Source: a virus. Taken from it: a stretch of 25,779 nucleotides of DNA. Every line of letters begins with the position of its first letter. Within the stretch, counting starts at the first letter, position 1. Shown piece by piece: positions 1 to 24,747 of the stretch. The notes below the pieces were generated by a model that saw nothing but the letters and a program-made list of their open reading frames with translations, had not been told where the DNA came from and made no database searches. Location of the stretch: the IMG/VR virus record IMGVR_UViG_3300045988_128600; one strand, given 5' to 3'. The position numbers and the translations under genes are program-made.

Positions 1-69
1 ACTGGCACTTTTAAATATAGAACTTCTACCACAGGTACTTGGACCCCTGTCCCCGTGGCTTGGATTTAA
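1..69 (+). CDS. Partial CDS, C-terminus only (…TGTFKYRTSTTGTWTPVPVAWI*). Unknown product, possibly the end of a structural or lysis-module protein.
   Basis: Open frame 1 runs from the window edge to TAA at 67-69. No homology is claimed. Confidence 0.3.
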   Translation, partial: TGTFKYRTSTTGTWTPVPVAWI

Positions 70-103
70 TATAAATTTATTATAAGAAAAAGGAGATAAT
101 ATT

Positions 104-514
104 ATGGATCAAAATTTGATTAATCAATTATTCCAAGTATGTTTAATTCCTATGCTTGGCGCTTTAACTACTTTTATAGTTATTTGGATTAAAGCAAAAA
201 GTGCGGAATTACAAAAGAAAACTAATAATGATATTTTAAATAAATATGTGCAAATGGCTACTGACACAATTACTAACTGTGTTATTGCCACTAATCAAAC
301 TTATGTAAATTCTCTTAAAGAACAAGGTAAATTTGATGAAGCTGCTCAAAAAGAAGCATTTTAGAGAACTTATCAAGCGGTGTTGCTTATTTTAAGTGAT
401 GACGCTAAAGAGTATTTGAATAATGCTTTTGGTGATTTAAATAAATATTTACAAGAGAAGATTGAGTCTACAGTAAATAATTATCGTACTCCAAGTAATG
501 ATTTAAAGCAATAA
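104..514 (+). CDS. Holin-like small membrane protein, 136 aa. It has one N-terminal transmembrane segment (LIPMLGALTTFIVIWI) followed by a charged, coiled C-terminus. It reads through an in-frame TAG at 362-364 to TAA at 512-514.
   Basis: RBS aaaaaGGAGAtaatatt precedes the ATG at 104. The TM-plus-KAK/charged-tail layout is typical of Gram-positive phage class-III-like holins (Cph1/EJ-1-like). After the TAG the frame stays open and protein-like (RTYQAVLLILSDDAKEYLNNAFGDLNKYLQEKIESTVNNYRTPSNDLKQ) and ends just before an intrinsic terminator. Confidence 0.55.
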
Positions 515-518
515 AAAT

Positions 519-560
519 AAGGGAGACATTCTTAATTGAATGTCTCCCTTATTTTTTTTT
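519..560. terminator. Bidirectional intrinsic terminator. A 13-bp stem AAGGGAGACATTC/GAATGTCTCCCTT is flanked by an A-run upstream and T10 downstream.
   Basis: A perfect inverted repeat lies at 519-550 with T-run 551-560. It sits between the convergent holin (+) and LytTR (-) genes. Confidence 0.8.
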
Positions 561-1275
561 ATCTGAATGGATTTTTCCATCGTCGATTAATTTCTTCATA
601 GCCTTTTTTAGGAAAGTATAAAATTTCACCATTTTTAAAAGTTAAATTATCTTTGTTCATTATTTTAATTTGATTTAAATTAATAATTAAACTTGGTGGA
701 ATAAAGACAAAATCTGGATGATAAACTAAAGTCCTTATATAGTTTTCAAAAGAAGTTTTTAAAGTTTTGCTATTTAGAACCTCATTTTCTAAATGGCAAC
801 ATAAATTTCGTTTTTGAATATCAGCATATAATACTTTACTCAAATCAATTTTTATTTCTCTATTAGGAGTATCTAAATATTTATATTCACGTCTTTTTTC
901 TTCTCTAACTTCATGTAAAATAGAAAAAATTTTTTCTTTATTAACAGGTTTTTTGACGAAATTAAATGCCTTTACTTCATAAGAAGCCACTCCATAATTT
1001 ATTTGGGAGGAAACAAAAATTATTTTTCCAATATACCCATTTGTTCTTAAAAGATGAGCTATTTCAATACCATCCATTTTTTTGAATGTAATCCCTAAAA
1101 AGATTGCATCATAATCAATATTGGAGTTAATTAATTTTTCAGGATCAGTAAATTTATATACATATCCTGGTAAATTAAAATCTTTAAAATACTGATTTAT
1201 TATTTCTTCCAATGAGTCATTTTGCTAATCGCTATTGTCGCAAACACCTACGATAAAAATTTTAATCACCTTCAT
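559..1275 (-). CDS. Orphan LytTR-family response regulator (AgrA/LytR-like). An N-terminal receiver-like domain has Gly in place of the phospho-acceptor Asp, and the C-terminus is a LytTR DNA-binding domain. There is one in-frame TAG near the N-terminus (MKVIKIFIVGVCDNSD*QNDSLEEIINQYF…).
   Basis: The track ORF 559..1212 extends in frame through a TAG to an ATG at 1273-1275, giving a receiver-like N-terminus MKVIKIFIV…. The receiver β3 position reads DAIFLGI (G where D is expected), β4 IIFVSS and β5 KKP are conserved. The LytTR domain is IKIDLSKVLYADIQKRNLCCHLENEVLNSKTLKTSFENYI…FIPPSLIINLNQI. No histidine kinase gene is adjacent. Confidence 0.65.
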
Positions 1276-1327
1276 TTTGTTTATTTTAGAAAAAATTTTT
1301 CTATCTTTATATTCTTTCTATATTATA

Positions 1328-1356
1328 ATTATACAAAAATTTTTAAATATTGTAAA
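1328..1356 (-). promoter_or_regulatory. Consensus sigma-A-type promoter on the - strand for the LytTR gene: TTTACA-17-TATAAT with a TG-extended -10.
   Basis: The - strand reads TTTACAatatttaaaaatttttgTATAAT. The -35 is at + 1351-1356, the -10 at + 1328-1333, with a 17-nt spacer. Confidence 0.6.
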
Positions 1357-1368
1357 ATAAAAAATTAT

Positions 1369-1425
1369 AAAGTGTCAAATTTATTTAATTTTAAGTAAGT
1401 GAAATTTTTATCCAAAAAGTGTCAG
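1369..1425. promoter_or_regulatory. Direct repeats AAAGTGTCA (1369-1377 and 1416-1424) with a degenerate third copy AAGTGAAAT (~1397-1405). These are candidate LytTR binding sites in the divergent promoter region. The second copy overlaps the -35 position of a good -10 TATAAT at 1430-1435 on the + strand.
   Basis: The 9-mer occurs twice exactly, about 47 bp apart, between the divergent LytTR gene and the + strand gene block. The + strand has TATAAT at 1430-1435 with a poor -35 (TTTATC), the usual layout for activator-dependent promoters. Confidence 0.4.
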
Positions 1426-1465
1426 TAATTATAATATATTTACACAAAATAAAAGTTATATAATA

Positions 1466-1494
1466 ATGAAAGGAAAAGATAAAACCTTTCATTA
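1466..1494 (+). promoter_or_regulatory. 9-bp hairpin AATGAAAGG(n11)CCTTTCATT in the 5' leader, immediately upstream of the RBS of the 1519 gene.
   Basis: Inverted repeat seen in the sequence. The RBS GGAGG is at 1506-1510. Confidence 0.3.
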
Positions 1495-1518
1495 TTATAT
1501 TTCTCCGGAGGTAATAAC

Positions 1519-1965
1519 ATGAATACTTATGGTTATCCATAGCAGTAGTATCCAATAGGTAATAATAGACCTATTTATGGAACAACTGCTACACCTGTGA
1601 TTCAAAACAATACTGCATAGCGAATTAGACCCGTTGCTTCTTTAGAAGAGGTTCGAGCTATGAATATAGATTTTGATGGTTCAGTTTTTTATTTTCCTGA
1701 CTATGCTAATCGTAGAATTTATACAAAACAAATAAATATGGATGGAACAGCTTCTATTAATATGTATGAATTAAAGGAAATCCCGAATTCTTCTTAGCCT
1801 AATAATGATTATATAACACGAGAGGAATTTAATACTACCTTAACTTCTATTAAAGAAGTTTTTGCATAGATCATGGGATCTAATAACGCGGTTGCGCCAT
1901 CTCAAGGAACGGATTAGCCAGCTCAATAGCAACCAGCAGAGAGCAAACCGCAGTTTAATTTTTAA
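1519..1965 (+). CDS. Hypothetical Q/P-rich protein, 148 aa, with 7 in-frame TAG codons. It is invisible to standard-code ORF calling.
   Basis: RBS tctccGGAGGtaataac precedes the ATG at 1519. The frame is open to TAA at 1963-1965 only if TAG is treated as sense. The TAGs fall in Q-rich low-complexity contexts (GYP*Q*YP, GTD*PAQ*QPAESKPQ), which suggests TAG codes Gln. Confidence 0.6.
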
Positions 1966-1977
1966 GGAGAGTTTCAA

Positions 1978-2226
1978 ATGACACAATCAATGAATCCAAT
2001 GCAAATTATTGCTATGATTAAAAACGGTCAAAATCCATAGCAATTAGTTTTATCTATGCTTGAAAGTCAAATGGGCGGAACGCCAATGGGCAATAATTTA
2101 TTACAAATGGCACGGAACGGTCAATCCGATGACATTGAAAAATTTGCTCGTAATTTGTTTGAATCAAGAGGTTTGAATTTCGATAAAGAATTTAATAGTT
2201 TTAAGTCCCAAATGGGGTTTAAATAA
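1978..2226 (+). CDS. Hypothetical small protein, 82 aa, one in-frame TAG.
   Basis: RBS AAGGAGAgtttcaa precedes the ATG at 1978. The frame is open to TAA at 2224-2226 with TAG treated as sense. Confidence 0.55.
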
Positions 2227-2252
2227 ATAAAATTATAGAAAGAGGTTTTGTT

Positions 2253-3134
2253 ATGTTTAATTACAATTATCCAATGAGCACGCCGAATTATTCATTATCT
2301 GATATTGCTGCGGCTTCTGGAAATGGCTATCGTAATAATGATGGCGGAATGTGGGGAGACGGAGCATGGTGGATTATTATCCTGTTCTTATTCTGCTTCA
2401 ATGGCTGGGGCGGTAATGGCTGGGGTAATAATGGTGCTAATGGTTCTGGTTTCCAAGGCACTACAACTCGAGAAGAAATCGGTTATGGTTTTAACATGAG
2501 CGATCTTAAATCTGGCGTTAATGGTTTAGCTTCTAGCCTTTGTAATGGTTTTAGTGGAGTAAACACTAATCTTTTAAGTGGTTTTGCTAATCTTGCTGAA
2601 ACTAATAATGCTAATACTCGCACTTTACAGAGTGATATCTGTAATATGGGTATGAACAATATGCAGAATACCTTTAGTATTACTTAGGCTATTAATGCTG
2701 ATACTGTAGCAAGTATGCAAAATACTAATAATTTAACTCAGCAGTTAAGTAATATGGCAGCTACTAACGCTCAATGCTGCTGCGAAAATAAACAGTTAAT
2801 TCAATCTAGTTTTGCTGATCTTAATTACAATCTTGCTAGTATTGCTTGCCAGAATCGTCAGGCTACCGTTGATGGTGTCCGCGATATTATTGACAACAAT
2901 AATGCTAATATGCGTTCTATTCTTGACTTCCTTGTTCAAGATAAAATTGAGACTCTTACCAGTGAAAATAGCACTCTTAAAAATTAGATTTCTCAAAATC
3001 TTCAAAATGCTTATCTTATTGATCAGTTGTCTCCAAAAGCAACTCCTGCTTATATTGTTGCTAATCCTTATACCGGCGTTAGTTATACTAGCTATGGATG
3101 CGGATATGGTTCAGGGTGCGGTTGCAATTCCTGA
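2253..3134 (+). CDS. Membrane-anchored Gly/Asn-rich protein, 293 aa, with 2 in-frame TAGs. It has an N-terminal hydrophobic segment (AWWIIILFLFCF), NGWG repeats, a coiled middle and a C-terminal GCGYGSGCGC tail. It resembles YjcZ-family small sporulation proteins.
   Basis: Track ORFs 2253..2687 and 2715..2987 are in the same frame, joined by TAG at 2685-2687, and continue through TAG at 2988-2990 to TGA at 3132-3134. RBS agaaAGAGGttttgtt is present. Confidence 0.6.
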
Positions 3135-3155
3135 TTGAAGAAAGAAGGTTAAATT

Positions 3156-3578
3156 ATGGAAATAACGGCTAATGCTTTACAATCAGTTGCTACTGGTTCT
3201 AATGTAGTATTCACTAACACAGCTGTTGCTGGAAACTGTTCCATAATGTATCGCGAGGGTAGCGGTTTAGTTACCCTCCGCGGTCTTACGAACGGTCAAC
3301 GCAGAGCTCGTTTCCGCATTTCATTTGGAGGTAATATAGGACTTCCAACTACTGGAACTGCGGGTGCTATTTCTTTGGCTATAGCTATTAATGGAGAGCC
3401 AGTTACTACTTCTACAATGATTTCCACTCCTACGGCTACTGGATAGTTTAATAATGTTTCACGTGCTTTATTCCTCGATGTGTTAGGCGGTTGTTGCACT
3501 CAAATCAGTATTGAAAACACGAGTTCATAGGCTATTGATGTTGAAAACGCCAGCTTAATTATCGAGAGAGTGGCATAA
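3156..3578 (+). CDS. BclA C-terminal-domain-like (C1q/TNF-like jelly-roll) protein without collagen repeats, 140 aa, with 2 in-frame TAGs.
   Basis: The C-terminus …ASLIIERVA* mirrors the BclA exosporium C-terminal domain ending …SIIIEKVA. An internal …ISLAIAINGEPV… matches the BclA …LTIQVNGVPV… region. RBS aagAAGGttaaatt is present. Track ORF 3156..3446 continues through TAG codons at 3444 and ~3528 to TAA at 3576-3578. Confidence 0.55.
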
Positions 3579-3591
3579 GGAGGTTTTTTAA

Positions 3592-4137
3592 ATGTGTGAT
3601 AAATTCCAAGAAATTAAAAAACAATTATTAACTCAAGTAGAAAGCCAAATGGCTCATTTAGAATGTGTTGATACAAAGGAAATGGGCGAAGTAATAGATA
3701 TGATAAAAGACCTTGAACAGGCTATTTATTATTGCACTATTACTGAAGCTATGAATGAATTACCTGAAACCACACATTATTATACTGAAAAATATAAATC
3801 TCCTCATAAAAAAAGAATCTATAAACCTATGACATATGATTATGATTGGGAAGATTATGATTATGATGAACATGAATATGAGATGCCAACGAGTGGGAAA
3901 TCTCATGAAACCCATGATAGTAGAGAGGGTCGTAGCGGTGTCCATAGAAAGATGTATATAGAAGCCAAAGAACTTCATAAAGATAAAAGCGTTTAGATAA
4001 AAGAATTAGATAAGTATCTTCAAGAATTAAGTTCTGATATAGTAGAAATGATTGAAGATGCTTCTAATGATGAACGTTCTTATATGGAGAAGAAAATCTA
4101 GGCTTTAGCATCTAAAATTGGATCTATGAATGGTTAA
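3592..4137 (+). CDS. Hypothetical acidic protein with a DYDYDEHEYE tract, 181 aa, 2 in-frame TAGs.
   Basis: Strong RBS AAGGAGGttttttaa precedes the ATG at 3592. The frame continues past TAG at 3994-3996 and a second TAG to TAA at 4135-4137. Confidence 0.55.
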
Positions 4138-4450
4138 TATTAATAATAGGAATTGGAGGATACTATTAGTATCTTCCAATCATCCTATGTTAATGCGGCC
4201 TTCTGGAATATATACTTTAGGTTCTTGTGATGATCCTACTTCAACAATTTATATTAATGAAAATATTACTAATAAAAAATTAAAAAAAGTATTAGCGCAT
4301 GAATTAACTCATGCTGCTATTTTTAGCTATGATATTTCATTAAAACCAGAAGAAGAAGAATTGATTGCGGATTTGGTGGGAACTTATGGTGAAGAAATTA
4401 TAAATAATACTAATCTTTTATTTAAATAGATAAAAAAAATAAGGGAATGA
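4130..4450 (+). CDS. Small HEXXH metallopeptidase-like protein (ImmA/IrrE-like motif VLAHELTHAAIF), ~106 aa. A TAG at 4427-4429 is followed by TGA at 4448-4450.
   Basis: An HExxH motif sits in a plausible helix context. The ATG at 4130 overlaps the stop of the upstream gene. If TAG acts as a stop here the protein is 7 aa shorter. Confidence 0.45.
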
Positions 4451-4483
4451 AACTATTTTTGTTTCATTCCCTTATTTTTTTTT
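4441..4483. terminator. Bidirectional intrinsic terminator. A 13-bp stem AAGGGAATGAAAC/GTTTCATTCCCTT is flanked by A8 upstream and T10 downstream. It lies between the convergent + and - gene blocks.
   Basis: Perfect inverted repeat. It shares the flanks AATAAGGGA…TCCCTTATTTTTTTTT with the terminator at 519-560. Confidence 0.8.
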
Positions 4484-4484
4484 A

Positions 4485-4913
4485 TTAGTCTTTAAGCGGT
4501 AATTTTAAAGTCCTTTCATAGTACTCTTTAGCCTATCCATTCCCACCTAAACCTGCATATACTTTAAAGAATTCGACTAACTATTCATACTGTCCTGAAG
4601 TCATATATCCTTGTTTTAAGAAACTTTGACATAATTGAATTAATCTAAATCTATAAGAAGCAAGAATTATTTCAATATATCTCTTACTAATTTTCTTCTC
4701 TTCTAATACAAAAGATCTCAAATTATTTAGATCTTCTTTGATTGGAGCTATATGGTCTTCAATTAATTCTTCTAATTGTTCATCTTTCTTTTCTTCTGCC
4801 AATTTTTGATACATTTTCATTTGAGTATAAATATATCTACAAAAGGCTAAGAGGCCAGCAGAAATAAGACCAAAAAATATTTCTATAAAATGCTAGGCAA
4901 TAAAAGTAGACAT
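4485..4913 (-). CDS. Hypothetical protein, 142 aa, with an N-terminal TM segment and a coiled coil, and 3 in-frame TAGs. It is the last gene of the - strand block.
   Basis: Strong RBS GGAAGGAGGtatttttt precedes the ATG at 4911-4913. Track ORF 4581..4820 is the TAG-bounded middle of this frame. The extensions on both sides are in frame and end at TAA 4485-4487. Confidence 0.5.
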
Positions 4914-4990
4914 AAAAAATACCTCCTTCCATTAACTTCTAATATATTTTAAAAGAAAGGAAGGAGGATTATTTATTTAAGGCCTATCTA

Positions 4991-5503
4991 TTATTCCCAA
5001 TTAAAATCATTATTGGAACTTTCTTTCGTGAAATATGCGGTATATAAACATATAGCATCACATATATCATCATTGGCTTTTATATTATATTTTTGCTATA
5101 CAAAATCAATATCGGCTTGTTTGAGAGTTTCACGTTTAATACTGCGACCAGTTTTAATTCCAAGTTTTTTGCGCCATTCACTGGCCTACATCAATTCTAA
5201 TGTTTTGGAAGTAAATGAAGAATTAACTCCATGTGCGCCCAACATTACTGCGCCTTGAAGCCACATTAATAAACGCGAAGTATCAGAATATCCATAAGTT
5301 TCAGGATGAACATCTTCCGCTACTATCTTCTCTATATTATATTTTTTTACTAATTCAATAATCTAATCTTGTATTTTTTGTATTCTATCTAAATTATTAG
5401 AGGAAATCGCGGTTAGCAGTCCATAATCTAACATTTCTCCCTCACTATTAGATACACAATAACCAGTAGATTTAGTAGATAAATCTAAAAAGAGGATATT
5501 CAA
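4991..5503 (-). CDS. ruvC: RuvC-family Holliday-junction resolvase, 170 aa, with 3 in-frame TAGs. It is completely missed by standard-code ORF calling.
   Basis: The - strand translation begins LNILFLDLSTKSTGYCV… (RuvC motif I), has …KIVAEDV… in the middle and ends …ANDDICDAICLYTAYF… (catalytic Asp region). RBS AAAGGAGGcaattac precedes a TTG start at 5501-5503. TAA lies at 4991-4993. Confidence 0.7.
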
Positions 5504-5535
5504 GTAATTGCCTCCTTTCTTTAGGTTTGAGGTAA

Positions 5536-6054
5536 TTACTTTGAAGTTGAACCAAATCCTCCAAGACGATCACCAGAAGCATTATCATCTTCAGTGATTA
5601 AATAAGATTTAATAATACCTTGACCAATAACATCACCTTTATGAAGTTGAATATCAAAAGGAGATAAATTAATCATTTGAAAATAAATATGTCCTTCATT
5701 ATCAGGATTATTATAATAGTCTGCATCAATAATCCCAACGCCATTAGCAAGAATAAGCCAATATTTTAAAGGACAAGAACTACGAACTGACAATTCAAGA
5801 TATGTATTATCATTTAATTCACATTTAATTCCAGTAGGCACAAGAGTTGGTTTTGCTTTAAGATTTTTTGTCATATTACCTATATCTTCAAGAGAAATTG
5901 AATCAAAATAACGTGTTGGAAATCTATTTAGCAAATTCTTATATGCTGGAATTACAACATCTTCTGCTACTGTAAAATCATAGCCTGCGGATTTCGCTGT
6001 TTTTCTTACAGGCAAAACCGCATCAGGATATTTGCTTACTCGTTCAAACTTCAT
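5536..6054 (-). CDS. dut: dUTP diphosphatase (dUTPase).
   Basis: Motifs SAGYDF, GIIDADYY and the overall 172-aa length are present. Track ORF. Confidence 0.8.
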   Translation of the reverse strand: MKFERVSKYPDAVLPVRKTAKSAGYDFTVAEDVVIPAYKNLLNRFPTRYFDSISLEDIGNMTKNLKAKPTLVPTGIKCELNDNTYLELSVRSSCPLKYWLILANGVGIIDADYYNNPDNEGHIYFQMINLSPFDIQLHKGDVIGQGIIKSYLITEDDNASGDRLGGFGSTSK

Positions 6055-9956: not shown

Positions 9957-10532
9957 TTATTTATCTTGGTCCATTTCCGCCCATTGCTTAACTTTTTGAG
10001 TTAAAAGATTAACAATATTATTATAATCTTCCAATGTTTCATTTGCCACAATATTGCACTTAATATCATTCATTAGCTGAAATTGAATTTCATCAGTAGT
10101 ATATCTTCTAATGATTTCATTTACATCAGGATTTTTTTCTCTATTTAATTGCCTAATTAAGCGAGTTTTTCCTTTTGCAGTGATATAATATATCTCCAAT
10201 TCAATTCTATCATCTTTAAGAAGACTTATAATTCCTTCGGGATTAAAAACACCAATATTAACTTTACTGTCAGACAAACTATCAATACTTGTGCCATAAT
10301 ACCAATTATTAAAAGAAGTGGTTTCTAACATTTTATTTTCATCAATTAAAGTTAAAAACTGATCATCTGAAACAAAATGATAATTTTTGTCTGCTATTTC
10401 TTTTTCACGCTTTGGGCGCGTAGTGTGGCTTATAATAGGATTTAGATATTCCTCTAAGCGGGAAAAGGTAGCCATCATTAGGCTATCTTTTCCTGCACCA
10501 GATTTTCCACATAATGCAATAATTTTATACAT
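9957..10532 (-). CDS. Nucleoside/nucleotide monophosphate kinase (guanylate-kinase-like P-loop kinase).
   Basis: Walker A GKSGAGKDS and the guanylate-kinase TTRPKREKE motif are present. The likely start is the ATG at 10530-10532, preceded by AAGGAGGaattgaagaag. Confidence 0.65.
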   Translation of the reverse strand: MYKIIALCGKSGAGKDSLMMATFSRLEEYLNPIISHTTRPKREKEIADKNYHFVSDDQFLTLIDENKMLETTSFNNWYYGTSIDSLSDSKVNIGVFNPEGIISLLKDDRIELEIYYITAKGKTRLIRQLNREKNPDVNEIIRRYTTDEIQFQLMNDIKCNIVANETLEDYNNIVNLLTQKVKQWAEMDQDK

Positions 10533-13500
10533 CTTCTTCAATTCCTCCTTGATAACGAGCATCTTTTAAAACTAAATCGCCATTGGATAAAATTTCATCA
10601 ATTTTATATAATTGATGCCCTCCAGAAGAAGCATATTTTTTTGACATGAAATTATCTCCATTACGAATTCCAGAGACTACGATCATATTTCCACGATTAA
10701 ACCAAGATTTTTCAACAATATGTTTAGTTCCGTCTGCCCCGCGCTCTGAAATTTGTTTATCAAATAAACTAAAATATTCTTTTCTAAACTTTACTTCTAC
10801 AGGACCAGTAGTAGTAAGAATGGTTACAGTGCTTTTAGTTTTATTTTTGGCAATACAAGTTCCGCAAATTTTAAATAACTTATAAATATGAATAGTATGA
10901 TTTCCTTTAGTAAAACTTCTATCAACTATTGGATCTTCTGGAAGCTTAAAGAAATCTACAAATCCGTATTTATCATTGTTAATATTATTCAATTCATGAG
11001 TATGATAATAATAACAAAGAACTTCCATTTCCCAAGCGGATAAATTATTTTTATTAGCGTATTTATCCCAATCATCTTTAAATATTTTTATATTCAGATT
11101 ATTCAAAATTTCATCTTTATTATTAGCAATCCAAGTGCGGAATATGTCCATCCACTTTTGATATATACTATTCCAAACATTTTCACTTAAAGAATAATTA
11201 GTTCCATCAAATTGAATATTATTATCTTCTCCAATTTCTACTAAGAAATTAATTGCTCGTTCATCAAGTTGATATAGACCATTATTTTTTGTAGTTTTAC
11301 AAATTGCTTTTAAATATCTATTAAATTCATAAATACGGCGAGCCATAATTTGATTTTCATTTTCTTCTGGAAGAAGATCATATTTCATAAGTCCGCCCAT
11401 ATTTTGAAGAGTAATTCTTTTCTTTTTGTCGCAAGTTTCCCAAATATACCAAATCATTAATTCTTTTCTATCCATCATATTATCAAAGGCTCCACCTTTA
11501 ATAAGAGAAATCATAGCTTGTTTACCTGGTTTAATACGGTATAAAAATTCTTTAGGATTTGAATAAGGACGATTGGCAATAATTGTATTAACTAATTCAT
11601 CACCAACATTTAGCATACCTTTTAATCCGAAAAGGATTTTATTATTTTCAATATCAGGAGCAAATCCAAATTTAGATTTATTAATATCAGGAAGACCTAC
11701 TTTAATTCCTGCTTTTTGAATATCACTAATAGCCTTAGCAATTTTTCCATAATCAGTAGCCGCTGTTTTGCGGATTTTGCCACTTTTGTCAGGAAGATCT
11801 TCAAATGTTACTCCATTAGCTAAATCATCACCTTCAGGAGCATAAATATCTACAATCTCTTCTTCGCTATTATCTTCAAGGGAACCACTATTAACAATTA
11901 AGCAAGCAGTATCCCAATAGATAGGATTAAAATGAATTACTAAGTAAATCATTTGAATTGCTACAAATGAATAAGGAAGGGAGTGATTAAGGCTAAATGC
12001 ATATCCTAATTGAGGAGCAACTGCAATTTCCCAAAAGTATTCGGCAGATTTTTCATTATCAAATTTACTAAATACTTGTTCTCTCAATTGTGGAATTTCA
12101 GCCATTTGTTTTTTAGCAACAATCTTACGCGCCGTATTAGCTTCACCAAGAGTAAAATGAGCTACATCCATAAGGATTTCCATCATTTGCTCTTGAATAG
12201 GACAACATCCATAATATTTATCACAATGTTTATGCATCTTATCAATTAATTCTTGTGGAAGATGTTGAGCCTTCATTTCATCATCAAATACTTTAATACC
12301 TGAATGTTGAATGCGATAATATCTATCTTGCTGTGATTCTTTACCTTTTTCAGACATAAGACGCATCATAGCGTTTGCCGCCGTCATTTCCATAGGGTCT
12401 TGGGGTTTAAGACGTTTCGCAATTGCCAAACCAACTCCCGTAGAAAATTGGAATACATCTAATACATCACCAGCAGCAAGGTGGTCCCAAATTGCTTGGT
12501 CAGTTGTATCTATTACTTCTGGATGAATATATTTATTATAAAATTCTCGTAAAGATAATTCTGGAATTTGCTTATCTTTTAGAAGTAATTGATAACAAGT
12601 AATAATTTTATCAGAAGCTTCAGTTACAAGGAAGTCATATTTTGTATCTCCCGCGGCTTCCGCTTTATGAAGATCCCAACAAGTAATCATATCTCCACTA
12701 GGAGTTCTCATAAATGATGCTGTATCAAATGGATCGTCACCATACAAAATAACGCCAGAAGCATGAGAAGAACGTTTATTAACCATTCCTTCAATATATA
12801 CAATAATATCTAAAAGACCAGGATATTGGTTTACTTCTCGAATAAATGCTTGAACGGGCTTACGGTCTTTTTCTTCATTACCATAAATAACATCATGGAT
12901 AGGCCATAAAAATCCACGTTCTTGGGGAATTAATGAAGACATATATTGAGCATTATCAACATCAATTCCTTCTGGGAATTCTTCACTTCTATATCCACGG
13001 CAAGCAGTTAAAATACTTTGTTTAGTGCCTTCAGTTCCAAATGTAGCAACTTGAACCAATCCCAATTCTCCGCGTTCTTTTCTAATTGCTTTGAAAATCG
13101 CGGGACGTTTACTTGGGGCAAGGTCAATATCAATATCAGGCAATTCCGCGCGCTCCTTATTTAAAAATCTCCAATAAGGAAGTCCCCAACGAATTGGGTC
13201 TAATTGAGTAATGCCTAAAAGATAATTAGATAAAAAGCCAGTTGCTGAACCACGTCCAGGACCTACAATACTTCCACATTCCCAAAATAAATTAATATAA
13301 TGTTGAAAAGTATTAAAATAAGCAAAAAGACAATCATCTAATTTTTCGCCAATATCTTTTATGATATCAGCTTCAATTTCAAGTCGCTCTAAATAATTTT
13401 TATTATCATAAAGTTGCTTTTCTTGTAAAGCTTTAATACATTCATTTGCCCAATACCGTTCTTGAATATTGTCGCTATTAATTAAAGAACAGATAATTGG

Positions 13501-14538
13501 ATATTTATCAAACCATTCTGAAGGAATAAATCCTTTCTTATAATCCTTTACTTCAACTTTTGGAATAATTTGTTTTCTTTCTAATGAATAAAAAGAAATT
13601 TTATTTTGGATCTCTTGAGTGTTATCAAGAATCCAATTTATCAATTCTTTTCCTGTTTTATTATCTTTATCCCAATCATTAGCATAAGGTTCCATTAATT
13701 CAAAAATTTCATCACTTGTCATTAAGTAAGTAAATTTATAAAAATCGTCAACTTCTCTTTCTCCTGGCTTAGAAGTAAGATATGCTTTATGAATGGGTCT
13801 ATCTTCTTTAGTTAAATAATGCGCATCTGTTCCAACTACCATTTTTAAATCAAACGCCTTGGCGATTTGATAAATTTTATGATTTACAATTATTTGCTCA
13901 GCGTCAGTAGATGGCGCACATTCAAGATAAAAATCATCTTTTCCAAATACTTTAATACAAAAATTAATATAATCAATTATTTGATTATAATATTTAGTTT
14001 GAGTTTCAATATCTTTATTTAATTCAGCTTGGAACATTGGTAAAATACAGCTACCAAGTTCTCCACCAATACAAGCAGTTGTTGCTATAACATGCCCTTT
14101 ATATTGTTCCATTACCATTTCAAGCTCACTTTTTAAAGTAGGAACTCGTTCCATACGTCTATCAACATAACTATGAATCCAAGCAATAGAACTTAATTCT
14201 CTTAATGCTTTATGTCCGATGGCATCTTTAGCAATAAGAATAAAGTGGTAATATTTTTGTCCATTATCTCTTGTATCAGTGAGATAAATTTCATTACCAA
14301 GAGCAATAGTAAAATCAGGATTTTCTTCTCTTATTTTTTTTGCATATTGATTTACTTCCATATGCGCAGAAAGGCATTCATGGTCTGTAATAGTTATTCC
14401 TGATAGGCCTAATTCTATCGCTTTGTCAATAAGAGCTTGTGGTCTATTAATACAATCTAATAGACGTAAATTTGAATACATTGTATGATTGTGAATCCCG
14501 AAATATGATCTCATTCGCACATTCCTTTCATCTTTCAT
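10525..14538 (-). CDS. dnaE: DNA polymerase III alpha subunit (DnaE-type, N-terminal PHP domain), 1337 aa with no in-frame TAG.
   Basis: The PHP motif FGIHNHTMYS…GITITDHECLSAH and the length are typical of the alpha subunit. Track ORF. The true start may be the internal Met (MRSYFGIHNH) at ~14514. Confidence 0.85.
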   Translation of the reverse strand: MKDERNVRMRSYFGIHNHTMYSNLRLLDCINRPQALIDKAIELGLSGITITDHECLSAHMEVNQYAKKIREENPDFTIALGNEIYLTDTRDNGQKYYHFILIAKDAIGHKALRELSSIAWIHSYVDRRMERVPTLKSELEMVMEQYKGHVIATTACIGGELGSCILPMFQAELNKDIETQTKYYNQIIDYINFCIKVFGKDDFYLECAPSTDAEQIIVNHKIYQIAKAFDLKMVVGTDAHYLTKEDRPIHKAYLTSKPGEREVDDFYKFTYLMTSDEIFELMEPYANDWDKDNKTGKELINWILDNTQEIQNKISFYSLERKQIIPKVEVKDYKKGFIPSEWFDKYPIICSLINSDNIQERYWANECIKALQEKQLYDNKNYLERLEIEADIIKDIGEKLDDCLFAYFNTFQHYINLFWECGSIVGPGRGSATGFLSNYLLGITQLDPIRWGLPYWRFLNKERAELPDIDIDLAPSKRPAIFKAIRKERGELGLVQVATFGTEGTKQSILTACRGYRSEEFPEGIDVDNAQYMSSLIPQERGFLWPIHDVIYGNEEKDRKPVQAFIREVNQYPGLLDIIVYIEGMVNKRSSHASGVILYGDDPFDTASFMRTPSGDMITCWDLHKAEAAGDTKYDFLVTEASDKIITCYQLLLKDKQIPELSLREFYNKYIHPEVIDTTDQAIWDHLAAGDVLDVFQFSTGVGLAIAKRLKPQDPMEMTAANAMMRLMSEKGKESQQDRYYRIQHSGIKVFDDEMKAQHLPQELIDKMHKHCDKYYGCCPIQEQMMEILMDVAHFTLGEANTARKIVAKKQMAEIPQLREQVFSKFDNEKSAEYFWEIAVAPQLGYAFSLNHSLPYSFVAIQMIYLVIHFNPIYWDTACLIVNSGSLEDNSEEEIVDIYAPEGDDLANGVTFEDLPDKSGKIRKTAATDYGKIAKAISDIQKAGIKVGLPDINKSKFGFAPDIENNKILFGLKGMLNVGDELVNTIIANRPYSNPKEFLYRIKPGKQAMISLIKGGAFDNMMDRKELMIWYIWETCDKKKRITLQNMGGLMKYDLLPEENENQIMARRIYEFNRYLKAICKTTKNNGLYQLDERAINFLVEIGEDNNIQFDGTNYSLSENVWNSIYQKWMDIFRTWIANNKDEILNNLNIKIFKDDWDKYANKNNLSAWEMEVLCYYYHTHELNNINNDKYGFVDFFKLPEDPIVDRSFTKGNHTIHIYKLFKICGTCIAKNKTKSTVTILTTTGPVEVKFRKEYFSLFDKQISERGADGTKHIVEKSWFNRGNMIVVSGIRNGDNFMSKKYASSGGHQLYKIDEILSNGDLVLKDARYQGGIEEDV

Positions 14539-18026: not shown

Positions 18027-18866
18027 TTAATTAGTAAAATAATTATAAGCAGTGGTCGCATTCTTTTGTCTTTGATTTAAAGAACTTGATCCACAACGTT
18101 CATAACATTTCGCAAAAGCTTTAGCAACTTCTTTTTCATCATTTAAATTTAAAAAAGAATTAAAATTAAATCCTCTTTTATATGAAGAACCAAAAGTATT
18201 AAATTCGTATCCAATAGTATTTATTAAGAATTCGCATTGTGTATCTAAATTAGAATACCAAACACTTGAATATCCTTTACTCCATTGACAAATTCCATAA
18301 TAATATTTGTTAGAGGCAGTTGGCTGTAAAGATAAAGTATTACCGCCACATTCTGCCATCATATTGCCCAAAATACCAGCGCAAACCGCGTCATTCCATC
18401 CTTGGTCTTTCATATAAAGCCAAATTTCTGTTGCTACTGGGTAAGTAGATGATTTATCATTCCATTGAGAATTAATTTTATCTAAACGATTCTGATAAAT
18501 TTCCAAATATCCATTAGCAGTTTCATATTCTTTTTTAGCAAATTCAATAATAGGATGATTTTCATCATACCCTAATGCTCTTGTTGCTTCGGCTAAGTCA
18601 TGAGCACTATTTACAATCTCTTGATACTCTTGGATTAGAGATTTGAGCTCTTTACGATTAACTGTATCATTAATTTCTCTATCCATAGGCTCCATATCAA
18701 TAGTTTCTTCTGGTAAAAAATTATATACAGTTGATGATTCAGAAGGGATGTAAGCTTCCGAAAAAGTAGTGATTTCGCTATAATTTAAAGCAAAAGCTAA
18801 TGTTTGTAAAATAAAAATTAATACAAAACAAATAATGCTTCCTGCTAAAATCTTATATCTTTTCAT
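18027..18866 (-). CDS. Secreted or membrane-anchored lysozyme-like protein, 279 aa. An N-terminal signal/anchor precedes a C-terminal phage-tail-lysozyme/SLT-like domain (AGILGNMMAECGG…YYYGICQW).
   Basis: The N-terminus is MKRYKILAGSIICFVLIFILQTLAFA (signal peptide or signal anchor). The catalytic-region motif resembles the 'phage tail lysozyme' family (AGILGN..ESG…GL.QW). Strong RBS AGGAGGaaatcattt is present. It contains no TAG. Confidence 0.5.
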   Translation of the reverse strand: MKRYKILAGSIICFVLIFILQTLAFALNYSEITTFSEAYIPSESSTVYNFLPEETIDMEPMDREINDTVNRKELKSLIQEYQEIVNSAHDLAEATRALGYDENHPIIEFAKKEYETANGYLEIYQNRLDKINSQWNDKSSTYPVATEIWLYMKDQGWNDAVCAGILGNMMAECGGNTLSLQPTASNKYYYGICQWSKGYSSVWYSNLDTQCEFLINTIGYEFNTFGSSYKRGFNFNSFLNLNDEKEVAKAFAKCYERCGSSSLNQRQKNATTAYNYFTN

Positions 18867-19039
18867 AAATGATTTCCTCCTAATAGGTTTTTTAAGTCTA
18901 TTAGTCGTAGTGTCAATTATTAAAAATAATAAGCAGCCCTATCTACAATTTCGTAATCTTCTATAATAATCTAAGGACTAATATTATTATTCCATATATT
19001 TCGTTCGCATTTACCAACGATATTAATTGTCACATAACC

Positions 19040-22628: not shown

Positions 22629-24161
22629 TTAAAAAGCTGACTCTTCTTCAAGAGTAATTTTTATATCATCAATAGGAACAAGTTCATAAGCATATGTAGT
22701 ACAAAACATAGGAATAATTCTACAAGTTCCTAAATCTGCTTTACACCATAAAATAACTCCTTTATACCTACCACGTCTATTTTTATAGACAGATATTTTA
22801 ATAGTTGGAGTATCAAATAATTTTGTGTTTAGTATTTTTTCCAATGAAATTAAATCATCATCTTGGACATTTAAAAGAATTGATCCATAATCTACTTTAT
22901 CGGCAATAGATTTTGCTCCACGCAAAAGATTCTGATCAGGAGTTTTAGAATCAACATAATCACCATTTAATTGTGTTGCTGACATAATAAAAACACCATA
23001 TTGATTACAGATATCTTTTAATTTGTTAGATAGCATAAAAAGTATATTATCTTCACGAAGTTTTACTCCACCACTACGACGAGTAATTTCTTCAAGAATT
23101 TTCATACTTGTATGAATATAGTCATGGAAGATATATTTTACATCGTGATCTCGGATGCCTTTTTTGATTTCATTTTCAACATCCTGTAATGAAAAATCGG
23201 GTAATTCACGAATATATAATGGGCTATCTTTAAGAATTTTCGCAGCTTCTATTACTCGTTCTTTTTCATTTCCTTGATATTCATTATAAATAATATGTTC
23301 TTCATTTACGTTAGAAAGAAAAGCAAGCATCATTGTTTGAATTTCATTTTTATCTTGCTCTGTAGTTATATACAATACTGGTTCTTGGATTCCATTTTTG
23401 ATCCAACTTCCAAAAGTATCGTCATATATTTTATTACAAGCAATATAACACGAATCCGCAATCATAGAACGAGTTTTACCTACACCTGTGGCCGCGGAGC
23501 GCAAATAAAACTTTTTAAGTCTCGCACCACGAGTAACTGTATTAATTAATGGCCCATATAGAGGACTTCCTGCTATTGGATGTTGCTCTAAATCATCAAG
23601 CAATTCAAAGATTCCATCACCTGCTTGAACCGCGACTCCTTCAACGTCATTTACATACTCATATTTAATTTGTTCTATGCGGTCATCAATTAATTGTGCG
23701 ATATGCTCTAATGAAGAATTATCAAGATTATCTTCTTGTAATTGTTTTTTTTCAGTATCTAAAATATTATCAGGATCATAAATAAAAGAAACATCAATGC
23801 CATATCTGTCATAAGCACGAAGTAGAGACATTTTTTTTAAACGACCATAATAATAATCAAATGACAAAGGTTTCGCATTTTCAGAAACTTTCAATAACCA
23901 TTCTTCACCTTTATTAACTTTAAATGTGGCTTCATATTTAGGTCGAGAAGAAAGAAAATCACTAATATTTTCTAAAGTAATTTTCTAAGCTCCTAATTCA
24001 TGAATTTTATATATTGCTCCAAAAACAATTCTATGAAATTCATCAGCAAAATCTTCATCAGTTATTGTATATCTATCAGTAAAATCCAAAAGCTAAGGAG
24101 TATTATATACGCACCCTATAACTTGTGTAATCGCTGTTGGGTCTACATATTTACTCGGCAT
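22629..24161 (-). CDS. dnaB: Replicative DNA helicase DnaB, 510 aa, with 2 in-frame TAGs in the N-terminal domain.
   Basis: Track ORF 22629..23894 (RecA-like C-domain, Walker A GVGKTRSM) extends in frame upstream through two TAGs to the ATG at 24159-24161, which is preceded by GGAGGacttaa. The added 89 aa resemble the DnaB N-terminal domain (…FHRIVFGAIYKIHELGA*KITLENISDFL…). The total is 1533 nt, divisible by 3. Confidence 0.75.
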
Positions 24162-24501
24162 TTAAGTCCTCCTATTCATCTAAAAATGTAAAAACTGATC
24201 TTTTTCGAGGTTCTTTTTTAGGAATAGGAATTTTTATTTCCTTTAATTTAGGAACGTAATCAATAACATTTTTATCTTTATTGGATTGTTGAATCATCCA
24301 AAGATTATAATAATAATTGTAAGCGTCTTTATAAATAAAAGGTATAATACCAATTCCACCATTAGCTTTATTTTTATTATTTCCTTTAACCTCATAAAAA
24401 TAAACTAAGGCTTTTAACATTCCAGAATATGTATATTGATATTCTCTGATATAATCATTCATTTGCTTGCGGACGCGAGCATTAATATATGATTCTCCCA
24501 A
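24151..24501 (-). CDS. Hypothetical protein, ~116 aa, with a TTG start in the track and a TAG at 24172-24174 followed by TAA at 24151. A zinc-ribbon-like N-terminal extension is possible.
   Basis: Track ORF 24172..24501. See the finding on the start-less upstream open frame. Confidence 0.4.
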
Positions 24502-24747
24502 TAAATTTTTTACATATTCTTCAAATTTTTCTTTATCTAAATCTTCTTTTGTTTTTACTTTTTCGGGCGGATTATGAACTTGTAAAGGAGTGTCTTCATT
24601 TTCAGCCTATTTAGCACATTCAGGGTGCGCATATCTTCGAGATTTTATTTGAACATAAGGAAACTTATCTCTATCAAAAGTCTGCTGACAATAAATACAT
24701 TTAACTTTATGTATATAAATTACTCCTTTCCATTACTTTATATAAAT

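What the first reader, a model, noticed from the sequence alone, without database searches (positions are those of the whole stretch)
559..1518. Orphan LytTR regulator with a phosphorylation-dead receiver, placed back-to-back with the holin and divergent from the accessory block
The regulator keeps a receiver fold (β4 Ser, β5 Lys-Pro) but has Gly at the phospho-acceptor position, and there is no histidine kinase nearby. It therefore probably acts independently of phosphorylation, as reported for other orphan LytTR regulators. The 240-bp divergent region (1276-1518) holds a consensus promoter for the regulator and exact direct repeats AAAGTGTCA (1369-1377, 1416-1424). Direct repeats are the typical LytTR site architecture. 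The second repeat overlaps the -35 position of a + strand TATAAT (1430-1435) that has a weak -35, which is the layout of an activator-dependent promoter for the TAG-rich gene block. LytSR-type regulators classically control holin/antiholin genes, so a link to lysis control is plausible.
Basis: partly seen in the sequence, partly recalled or inferred. Interest (0 to 1): 0.7.

Follow-up and report, generated by a model that had tools for sequence, protein, structure and literature searches.

The report
Phage LytTR regulator with dead receiver
A large gut phage that reads TAG as glutamine encodes a two-component-type DNA-binding regulator that has lost its phosphorylation site and probably switches on the neighbouring six-gene block through conserved repeat boxes; it is an interesting but not unprecedented kind of regulator, and nothing ties it to lysis control.

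Summary
The gene is real. On the minus strand, 559..1275 encodes a receiver + LytTR-fold protein. Gly61 occupies the phospho-acceptor position, and no histidine kinase lies in the window or within ±8 kb in relatives.

The protein belongs to a family of more than 270 members with no named function (phrog_8810). In every one of 11 independent lineages of ~100-200 kb phages examined, the layout is the same: six-gene block, then regulator, then holin.

The exact repeats AAAGTGTCA are real and not chance. They belong to a conserved array of same-strand "CAC" boxes. Box A (1414-1425) sits exactly 30 nt from a conserved TATA-type element (1459-1464) in all lineages.

The exact copies are 47 bp apart, which is not LytTR spacing; the LytTR-like pair is box A plus a degenerate box B.

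The holin is convergent, terminator-separated and belongs to a tail-fibre operon, so the lysis link is unsupported.

In the Gly clade the true start is probably AUU/AUA.

Verdict: a new member of a known kind, an aspartate-less LytTR regulator encoded by a phage.

The parts
104..514 (+). Putative holin (136 aa, one in-frame TAG at 362-364). It is the last gene of a tail-fibre operon and convergent with the regulator.
   Evidence: phrog_13712 'holin' E 6.7e-38. Pfam Holin_LLH reaches only E 0.037. The upstream gene in L001 is a 342-aa protein that I take to be a tail fibre; it was not annotated here.
513..556 (.). Bidirectional intrinsic terminator between the holin and the regulator.
   Evidence: 19-bp stem with T-runs on both strands.
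559..1275 (-). Regulator ORF including its stop codon: a pseudo-receiver (residues ~6-130) plus a LytTR-fold domain (~131-238). The probable real start is ATT at 1260..1258.
   Evidence: dN/dS is 0.06-0.2.
1093..1095 (-). Codon GGG for Gly61, at the phospho-acceptor position at the end of beta-3.
   Evidence: phmmer alignments to MrkE, LytR and ComE. Family alignments.
1225..1227 (-). In-frame TAG, codon 17 from ATG1275 or codon 12 from ATT1260. It is read as Gln.
   Evidence: Conserved in all close loci, L013 and L019. In the window, no gene ends in TAG and 42 of 314 Gln-type codons are TAG.
1258..1273 (-). Shine-Dalgarno GAAGGTGA (1273..1266), 5 nt, then ATT (1260..1258): the probable non-AUG start.
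   Evidence: ATT aligns with Met1 of the other lineages. ATG1275 is TTG in L013 and TGG in L019. L025 has no ATG/GTG/TTG between the upstream stop and its TAG.
1328..1356 (-). Promoter of the regulator: TTTACA-N17-TATAAT.
   Evidence: The -10 and its upstream AAAAATTTTTG are conserved in all lineages, often as an extended -10.
1367..1378 (-). Box C, TTGACACTTTAT. It contains the first exact repeat and lies at about -57..-46 of the regulator promoter.
   Evidence: Kept as TTCTCACTTTTT in L019.
1395..1404 (-). Box B, TTTCACTTAC: a degenerate copy 20 nt from box A.
   Evidence: TATCACTTAC lies 21 nt from box A in L019.
1414..1425 (-). Box A, CTGACACTTTTT. It contains the second exact repeat. Family consensus is ACTCACAC-TTTTT.
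   Evidence: Exactly 30 nt from the conserved TATA block in 10 of 11 lineages tabulated (31 nt in L028). PWM score 18.7, unique in the 25.8-kb window.
1459..1464 (+). Conserved -10-type element (TATAAT within TTATATAATAATGAAAGG) for the six-gene block. There is no recognisable -35.
   Evidence: The pattern YATATANYWAYGRARR occurs once per locus, always at this position.
1458..1500 (+). Perfect 16-bp inverted repeat or 5'-UTR hairpin just before the SD of the first block gene.
   Evidence: I4. RNA fold gives -18.9 kcal/mol, z -4.7. The inner 6 bp are kept across lineages with weak covariation.
1519..4450 (+). Six-gene TAG-rich block of unknown function (148, 82, 293, 140, 181 and 106 aa). It is the likely target operon.
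   Evidence: 15 TAG in 950 codons, against about 0.2% in the replication genes. Syntenic with the regulator in all lineages.

Best explanation
The gene encodes a phage transcription factor of the REC+LytTR type whose receiver has become a pseudo-receiver (acceptor Asp replaced by Gly61, second acidic residue by Asn14). It therefore works without a histidine kinase, and its activity is set by how much protein is made.

Inferred order of events:
1. Host RNA polymerase transcribes the gene from a strong sigma-70-type promoter (1356..1328).
2. Translation is throttled by a probable AUU start codon and needs the phage's TAG-to-Gln decoding at codon 12/17.
3. The protein then binds an array of same-orientation boxes in the divergent control region: box A 1414-1425, degenerate box B 1395-1404 and box C 1367-1378.
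4. Boxes A and B lie at about -57..-46 and -77..-66 of a -35-less promoter whose -10-type element is 1459-1464. From there the protein activates the TAG-rich six-gene block (1519-4450).
5. Box C lies at -57..-46 of its own promoter and gives autoregulation.

Shown here: the protein's identity and fold, the Gly at the acceptor, the absence of a nearby kinase, purifying selection, conservation of synteny, and conservation and fixed spacing of the boxes.

Inferred only: that this protein is what binds the boxes, the sign of regulation, the transcription starts, and the AUU start.

It has no demonstrable role in controlling the neighbouring holin.
For: Protein identity and fold:
- Pfam REC is above its cut-off, LytTR has E 6.5e-4, and phrog_8810 matches over the full length.
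- The AF2 model has pLDDT 87.
- Its best full-length PDB match is ComE (4cbv, E 5e-14). The C-terminal half matches the AgrA LytTR-DNA complex (4xqj, TM 0.79) and 3d6w.
- Gly61 aligns with the phospho-Asp.
- The Gly is fixed in the clade down to 36% identity: window, P0002, P0005/P0156 and P0008.
- dN/dS of 0.06-0.2 shows the gene is functional.

Context:
- The block, regulator and holin keep the same layout in 11 independent lineages whose regulators are only 30-68% identical.
- None of them has a kinase nearby.

Boxes:
- Box A sits at a fixed 30-nt distance from the conserved TATA block in 10 of 11 lineages tabulated (31 nt in L028).
- TCACA occurs 17 times against 2.4 expected, and never on the other strand.
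- There are 33 CAC boxes on the regulator strand against 5 on the other.
- Spacings of 21 bp (4 times) and 27 bp (5 times) recur.
- Box-like PWM hits reach 9.1 per kb in these intergenic regions against 0.79 per kb elsewhere.
- Lineage-specific box variants are duplicated within the same region: TGACACTTT twice in the window, and TTCCAACGG twice in L033 with one copy at the box A position. That suggests co-evolution with one binding protein.
- L030 and L026 carry two boxes 21 bp apart directly upstream of the -35 of the regulator promoter. This is the classical LytTR layout of 9-11-nt repeats with an 11-13-nt spacer (PMC4847170).

Coupling to the block:
- Two natural deletion variants remove the regulator's 5' part, the control region and block genes together (L012 and L018).
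Against: - No binding or expression data exist.
- Box A is almost invariant while the regulators diverge to 30% identity. That would also fit a host factor, an RNAP alpha-CTD (UP-element) site or a phage promoter element.
- The two exact copies in the window are 47 bp apart, and box B is degenerate.
- Box orientation relative to the two promoters is opposite.
- The conserved -10-type element ends in C rather than T in 4 of 11 lineages, so it may not be a sigma-70 promoter at all.
- LytTR scores below Pfam's gathering cut-off.
- In several lineages (L027, L031, L032) a box lies inside the spacer of the regulator's own promoter, which suggests repression rather than activation there.
- Only 25.8 kb of a ~190-kb genome was seen, so a distant kinase or other targets cannot be excluded.
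Confidence: 0.55

Rival explanations
1. Same protein, opposite sign: it is mainly a repressor or autorepressor. It occupies the box array to shut off its own strong promoter, and perhaps the block, acting like a phage early-to-late switch repressor.
For: In L027, L031 and L032 a box lies in the spacer between the -35 and -10 of the regulator promoter. In L033 a copy lies in the 5' UTR. The regulator promoter is near-consensus and needs no activator.
Against: In the window and L019 no box lies inside a promoter core. Boxes A and C sit at -57..-46, an activator-type position. The block promoter lacks any -35 in all lineages.
Confidence: 0.2
2. The boxes are not this protein's sites. They are a UP-element, a host-factor site or part of a phage-specific promoter. 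The regulator instead acts elsewhere, for example on host LytTR-controlled quorum-sensing, bacteriocin or competence promoters, as a host-takeover factor.
For: Box A and the TATA block are far more conserved than the regulator. Box A consists of a T/A tract plus a short core at the UP-element position. The TATA block resembles a -35-less late-promoter type.
Against: Box A is unique in the 25.8-kb window and occurs once per locus, so it is not a general phage promoter motif. The boxes form direct-repeat arrays with 21/27-bp spacing. Lineage-specific variants are duplicated locally. The regulator and the region are always adjacent and are deleted together.
Confidence: 0.15
3. One reading: a LytSR-like regulator that controls lysis timing through the adjacent holin.
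For: The regulator-holin adjacency is conserved in all lineages. LytSR controls lrgAB in staphylococci (established knowledge).
Against: The genes are convergent with a strong bidirectional terminator between them. The holin follows a tail-fibre gene with only about 35 nt of spacer, so it is co-transcribed with structural genes. No high-scoring box A copy lies upstream of it; the weak PWM matches nearby are in or beyond coding sequence. There is no LytS partner. NCBIfam LytR scores 36.7 bits against a cut-off of 375.
Confidence: 0.05
4. Nothing functional: a decaying gene (stop codon, lost Asp, no AUG) and chance repeats in AT-rich DNA.
For: In the standard code the ORF is broken. Some exact 9-mer repeat occurs in 88% of shuffles. 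Deletion variants exist.
Against: TAG is a sense codon throughout the window and no gene ends in TAG. dN/dS is 0.06-0.2 in both domains. The ORF is intact in all lineages. A G/C-containing repeat is rare by chance (22 of 5000), and the boxes are conserved in position across lineages.
Confidence: 0.03

Closest known systems
AgrA / ComE / LytR / BtsR-type response regulators (REC + LytTR, PF00072 + PF04397)
   Same: Same two-domain architecture and fold. The best PDB matches are full-length ComE 4cbv, the AgrA LytTR-DNA complex 4xqj and the LytR receiver 6m8o. Putative sites are direct repeats about 20-21 bp apart in a divergent control region, as at agr P2/P3 (my own knowledge) and as generalised in PMC4847170.
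   Different: The acceptor Asp is replaced by Gly and the second acidic residue by Asn. There is no kinase, and the gene is phage-encoded. LytTR scores under Pfam's cut-off. NCBIfam scores are far below every equivalog cut-off, so this is not an orthologue of any named regulator.
Aspartate-less receivers / pseudo-receiver atypical response regulators (e.g. RitR, ChxR, HP1043)
   Same: Domain software recognises it as a receiver, yet it lacks the phospho-Asp. It is an orphan and presumably phosphorylation-independent (PMC4395418, PMC12632262).
   Different: The characterised examples named in those papers (RitR, ChxR, HP1043) are, to my knowledge, not LytTR-type. In the 2015 survey Gly made up 11% of substitutions but had no characterised representative (PMC4395418). 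The window protein is viral.
Phage-borne two-component / agr genes in Clostridioides phages (LIBA2945 'two-component response regulator'; phiCDHM1 agr genes)
   Same: Phages of low-GC Gram-positive bacteria carry receiver-domain or agr-type genes (PMC3901668).
   Different: Only the receiver half matches (32% identity over 106 residues). Those are accessory quorum-sensing genes. The window gene is a syntenic core gene of its phage family with its own conserved control region.
phrog_8810 (PHROGs family, unknown function)
   Same: Full-length match, E 2.3e-26. The family search found more than 270 phage or metagenome members.
   Different: PHROGs gives no function for this family. The REC+LytTR assignment, the degenerate active site and the conserved boxes are new annotations.

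Membership tests
Response-regulator receiver domain (PF00072, CheY-like) | Sequence match above Pfam's gathering score and a (beta-alpha)5 fold | tested here: met
   36.6 bits against a cut-off of 30.2. The AF2 model shows five beta-alpha units at residues 7-130. Receiver structures match at TM 0.8-0.88.
Response-regulator receiver domain (PF00072, CheY-like) | Phospho-acceptor Asp at the end of beta-3 | tested here: not met
   Gly61 aligns with the Asp of MrkE, LytR and ComE and with Asp in 122 of 139 homologues.
Response-regulator receiver domain (PF00072, CheY-like) | Acidic pair after beta-1 that binds Mg2+ | tested here: not met
   The pair is Asp13-Asn14. Homologues have Asp-Asp in about 110 of 139. 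The phage family mostly has Ser-Asp.
Response-regulator receiver domain (PF00072, CheY-like) | Ser/Thr at beta-4 and Lys at beta-5 | tested here: met
   Ser89 and Lys109-Pro110.
Two-component system | Cognate histidine kinase encoded nearby | tested here: not met
   No HisKA, HATPase_c or His_kinase hit occurs in the window proteins scanned; four long ones were named from relatives or by eye, not scanned. None occurs within about 8 kb in the 11 independent lineages examined. The rest of the ~190-kb genome was not examined.
LytTR DNA-binding domain (PF04397) | Sequence match above Pfam's gathering score | tested here: inconclusive
   20.3 bits, E 6.5e-4, cut-off 22.6. The match covers 93 of 98 profile positions.
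LytTR DNA-binding domain (PF04397) | Ten-stranded beta fold of AgrA-C | tested here: met
   The model has about ten strands plus a short helix in residues 131-220. Foldseek matches 4xqj (AgrA LytTR-DNA, TM 0.79, rmsd 2.5), 3d6w (TM 0.71) and full-length ComE (E 5e-14).
LytTR DNA-binding domain (PF04397) | Binds two 9-11-nt repeats separated by 11-13 nt (PMC4847170) | tested here: inconclusive
   The exact copies are 47 bp apart. Boxes A and B are 20-21 bp apart but B is degenerate. Clean 21-bp pairs exist in L026, L030 and L032. Binding itself cannot be tested with these tools.
Aspartate-less receiver / pseudo-receiver regulators | Recognised as a receiver but lacking the catalytic Asp | tested here: met
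Aspartate-less receiver / pseudo-receiver regulators | Activity independent of phosphorylation | not testable with these tools
   Needs biochemistry.
LytSR-type control of holin/antiholin genes | LytS kinase partner, and a holin-like operon directly under the regulator's promoter sites | tested here: not met
   There is no kinase. The holin is convergent, behind a terminator, and is the last gene of a tail-fibre operon. No high-scoring box A copy lies upstream of it; the weak PWM matches nearby are in or beyond coding sequence. NCBIfam LytR scores 36.7 bits against a cut-off of 375.
TAG-to-Gln recoded phage (genetic code 15) | In-frame TAG in many conserved genes, with TAG never used as a stop | tested here: met
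   42 in-frame TAGs in 32 genes. Stops are 25 TAA and 7 TGA. In the regulator the TAG falls in helix alpha-1, near Gln positions that are conserved in homologues. No suppressor tRNA lies in this window.

The most novel reading that the evidence does not exclude
In the clade that lost the phospho-switch (Asp to Gly), control of the regulator may have moved from phosphorylation to translation. A strong host-type promoter makes the mRNA early. A non-AUG (AUU/AUA) start and an in-frame TAG within the first 12-15 codons would then allow full-length protein to accumulate only once the phage's TAG-to-Gln decoding is running. The regulator would thus act as a timer that couples the genetic-code switch to transcription of a TAG-rich late or accessory operon.
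Probability: 0.15. Interest if true: 0.7.

Novelty: new member of a known kind. Interest (0 to 1): 0.4.

Why it matters
- It gives a function and a testable cis-element map to phrog_8810, a conserved gene family of unknown function in ~100-200 kb gut phages. More than 270 relatives were found here.
- It shows that phages keep two-component-type regulators as kinase-free core transcription factors.
- If the Gly-type pseudo-receiver is active, it would be a tractable example of a class that had no characterised representative in the 2015 survey (PMC4395418).
- The early TAG and the probable AUU start make the locus a compact system for testing whether stop-codon recoding times phage gene expression (Borges et al., 10.1101/2021.08.26.457843).
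- It does not bear on lysis control as proposed.

Tried and rejected
- Megablast of window 1-6000 against GenBank phages found nothing. tblastn found only 20-32% relatives in unannotated faecal contigs and the receiver half of two C. difficile phage proteins.
- An Rfam scan of the whole window gave no match. ARAGORN found no tRNA.
P0008 has no match in IMG/VR, but its contig was found by exact look-up.
- I considered that the repeat overlaps a -35, but the coordinates reject this.
- I considered that TATAAT 1430-1435 is the block promoter. It is absent from L019, and its position is not conserved in L025.
- I considered that TTGACA 1378..1373 is the regulator's -35. It is not conserved (TTCTCA in L019); the conserved promoter is 1356..1328.
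- I considered a pseudogene. dN/dS and TAG usage reject it.
- I considered that the 16-bp palindrome is a conserved long hairpin. Only the inner ~6 bp recur, and covariation is weak.
- I considered a conserved leaderless small ORF starting at ATG 1467. The ATG is kept in 10 of 11 lineages, but the peptides vary in length and end point. I did not pursue it.
- NCBIfam, Pfam and PHROGs gave no function for the six block genes, apart from an HExxH metallopeptidase-like motif in the sixth.
Full report
**What the window is**

The 25.8-kb window has 30.7% G+C. Many conserved genes in it are interrupted by TAG and never end in TAG. There are 42 in-frame TAGs in 32 genes, with 25 TAA and 7 TGA stops. 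It is therefore a TAG-to-Gln recoded phage.

Close relatives (93-97% regulator identity) are IMG/VR contigs of 97-197 kb. More distant ones come from Logan and ENA assemblies. The window carries no tRNA and has no Rfam match.

**The protein**

On the minus strand, 559..1275 translates to 238 residues with one in-frame TAG at codon 17 (1225-1227). The standard-code ORF (559..1212) would lack strand beta-1.

- Sequence matches.
  - Pfam gives Response_reg at 36.6 bits, above its cut-off, and LytTR at 20.3 bits (E 6.5e-4), just below its cut-off.
  - PHROGs gives a full-length match to phrog_8810, a family of unknown function.
  - NCBIfam's best hits are LytR, BtsR and AgrA, all far below their cut-offs.
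- Structure.
  - An AlphaFold2 model built on 120 family members has pLDDT 87. It shows a (beta-alpha)5 domain followed by a beta-rich domain.
  - Foldseek's best match is full-length ComE (4cbv, E 5e-14).
  - The C-terminal half matches the AgrA LytTR-DNA complex (4xqj, TM 0.79) and 3d6w.
  - The architecture is therefore REC+LytTR.

**The receiver active site**

phmmer alignments to MrkE, S. aureus LytR and ComE place Gly61 (codon 1093-1095) at the phospho-Asp.

- Among 139 full-length homologues from a 1.8-billion-protein search, 122 have Asp at that position.
- Ser89 and Lys109-Pro110 are kept. The acidic pair is Asp13-Asn14.
- A profile search found 273 proteins (E below 1e-10) of ~235-242 aa, many on 100-200 kb contigs.
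  - In that phage family the acceptor is Asp in 113 of 123 and Gly in 7. The Gly is confined to the window's clade (window, P0002, P0005/P0156 and P0008, down to 36% identity).
  - The first acidic residue is Ser in 86 of 123, and Pfam often fails to call a receiver at all.
- The whole family thus has a degenerate pocket, and the window clade has in addition lost the Asp.
- dN/dS against relatives is 0.06-0.2 in both domains, so the gene is under purifying selection.

**No kinase, and conserved context**

No histidine-kinase domain was found in the window proteins scanned. NrdD, pol III alpha, dUTPase and NrdG were named from relatives' precomputed Pfam or by eye, not scanned here. The rest of the window encodes replication and nucleotide-metabolism genes.

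In 11 independent lineages whose regulators are 30-68% identical, the layout is always the same:
- replication genes (NrdD, NrdG, dUTPase, RuvC);
- a five- or six-gene block transcribed away from the regulator;
- the regulator;
- a convergent holin-like gene;
- tail-fibre and LRR giant genes.

No kinase appears within about 8 kb in any of them. The regulator diverges faster than its neighbours: 45% identity against 53-77% in L025.

**The holin link**

The 136-aa product of 104-514 matches phrog_13712 'holin' (E 7e-38). It is convergent with the regulator. A 19-bp-stem bidirectional terminator separates the two genes. The holin follows a gene for a 342-aa protein, which I take to be a tail fibre, with only about 35 nt of spacer. 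No high-scoring box A copy lies upstream of it; the weak PWM matches nearby are in or beyond coding sequence.

The adjacency is conserved, but nothing indicates regulation. A Phage_lysozyme2 protein lies far away at 18027-18866.

**The repeats**

AAAGTGTCA occurs exactly at 1369-1377 and 1416-1424.
- Some exact 9-mer repeat occurs in 88% of dinucleotide shuffles of this region.
- One with at least 3 G/C occurs in 22 of 5000 shuffles.
- Three AAGTG on one strand occur in 3 of 5000.

Read on the regulator's strand, the boxes are:
- box A, CTGACACTTTTT (1425..1414);
- box B, TTTCACTTAC (1404..1395);
- box C, TTGACACTTTAT (1378..1367).

Core spacings are 20 and 27 nt in the window, and 21 and 27 nt in L019.

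**Comparative footprint**

Box A across 10 lineages:
- It has the consensus ACTCACAC-TTTTT. It lies exactly 30 nt from a conserved block, T[TC][TC]ATATA..AATG-purines (window 1457-1472, containing TATAAT 1459-1464).
- The conserved block is followed by a short hairpin, the SD and the first gene of the block.
- The pattern for that block occurs exactly once per locus, always at this position.
- Box A scores 18.7 with a family PWM and is unique in the window.

The wider box array, between the two promoters:
- TCACA occurs 17 times against 2.4 expected, and never on the other strand.
- There are 33 CAC boxes on the regulator strand against 5 on the other.
- Spacings of 21 nt (4 times) and 27 nt (5 times) recur.
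- PWM hits reach 9.1 per kb against 0.79 per kb elsewhere.

Lineage-specific variants and layouts:
- Variants are duplicated locally: TGACACTTT twice in the window, and TTCCAACGG twice in L033, one copy at the box A position.
- L026, L030 and L032 carry pairs 21 nt apart next to the regulator promoter. This is the classical LytTR layout of 9-11-nt repeats with an 11-13-nt spacer (PMC4847170).

**Promoters**

*Regulator promoter.* The conserved one is TTTACA-N17-TATAAT (1356..1328). Its -10 and upstream A/T tract are kept in all lineages, often with an extended -10. TTGACA 1378..1373 is part of box C and is not conserved (TTCTCA in L019).

The repeat lies at -26..-18 of it, not at -35.

The conserved element is 1459-1464. 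No -35 or TGn precedes it in any lineage. That fits an activator-dependent promoter, with box A at about -57..-46 and box B at about -77..-66. Box C lies at -57..-46 of the regulator promoter.

The -10-type element ends in C in 4 of 11 lineages, so a non-sigma-70 promoter type cannot be excluded.

**Start codon and early TAG**

The window's ATG1275 has no SD. It is TTG in L013 and TGG in L019.

A conserved SD (GAAGGTGA, 1273..1266) is followed 5 nt later by ATT (1260..1258). That codon aligns with Met1 of the canonical-start lineages (M-x-x-I-A-I-C).

L019 has the same SD + ATT arrangement. In L025 there is no ATG, GTG or TTG at all between the upstream stop and the TAG, yet a strong AAAGGAGGAG precedes ATT-ATC-ATA.

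A non-AUG start is therefore likely in the Gly clade.

Early TAG codons:
- The TAG at codon 12 (counted from ATT) is conserved in the window clade, L013 and L019, and also occurs in L029.
- Other lineages have early TAGs at codons 14-22.
- Two lineages have none.
- With TAG making up 13% of Gln codons, this is suggestive at best.

**Dispensability**

Two relatives carry deletions. L012 lacks window 1215-3848 and L018 lacks 714-2332. Both remove the regulator's 5' part, the control region and block genes together. This is consistent with an accessory regulator-target module, although contiguity alone could explain it.

**Conclusion**

It is wrong about the promoter geometry and unsupported on lysis.

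The best explanation is a kinase-independent, phage-encoded REC+LytTR factor that acts on a conserved direct-repeat array to control the adjacent six-gene block and its own gene. Binding, the sign of regulation and the transcription starts are all inferred.

Aspartate-less receivers are well known (PMC4395418, PMC12632262), and phages are known to carry two-component or agr genes (PMC3901668). This is therefore a new member of a known kind. A speculative but testable twist is that translation (AUU start plus early TAG) may have replaced phosphorylation as the control input.

Noticed in passing
L012 and L018, compared with window 714-3848: Two related contigs carry clean deletions. L012 lacks window 1215-3848 and L018 lacks 714-2332. 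Each removes the regulator's 5' part, the whole control region and two to five block genes, so the module seems dispensable.
   Followed up: partly
window 1258-1273 (-): The regulator probably starts at AUU (AUA in L025), 5-8 nt after a conserved strong SD. The upstream ATG1275 is not conserved.
   Followed up: yes
window 1458-1500: A perfect 16-bp inverted repeat (ATATAATAATGAAAGG / CCTTTCATTATTATAT) includes the conserved -10-type element. Only the inner ~6 bp recur in other lineages.
   Followed up: partly
window 1467-1523 (+): An 18-codon ORF (MKGKDKTFHYYISPEVIT) starts at the conserved ATG just after the TATA block. It ends in TGA overlapping the ATG of the first block gene (ATGA). The ATG is kept in 10 of 11 lineages, but the peptides differ in length (read by eye).
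   Followed up: no
window 1519-1965 (+): The first block gene uses TAG for 7 of its 14 Gln codons, and has 6-7 TAGs in three lineages. It is by far the most TAG-rich gene in the window. DNA polymerase III alpha (1337 codons) has none.
   Followed up: partly
window 18027-18866 (-): A 279-aa protein with an N-terminal hydrophobic segment and a Phage_lysozyme2 domain, without TAG codons, sits inside the replication module, far from the holin.
   Followed up: no
window 18920-20668 (-): A RecJ-like DHH/DHHA1 exonuclease carries 6 in-frame TAGs, whereas the neighbouring replication genes have 0-2.
   Followed up: no
window 4130-4450 (+): The last block gene (106 aa) has an HExxH motif (HELTH). It has weak hits to DUF2268, Peptidase_M78 (IrrE/ImmA-like) and SprT-like metallopeptidases.
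   Followed up: no
L026 2230-2330: In this lineage the control region contains about 2.5 tandem copies of a 27-nt unit (CCTGAAATTTTAATTCAACTTTTCAAA). This period matches the recurrent 27-nt box spacing in other lineages.
   Followed up: partly
window 24727-24742 (-): A one-mismatch copy of the conserved TATA-block pattern (TATAAAGTAATGGAAA) lies in the intergenic region upstream of gene 24151..24501, without a box A. It may be a second promoter of the same type.
   Followed up: no
window 9957-10562 and 10525-14538 (-): The guanylate-kinase-like gene overlaps the 3' end of the DNA polymerase III alpha gene by 38 nt.
   Followed up: no
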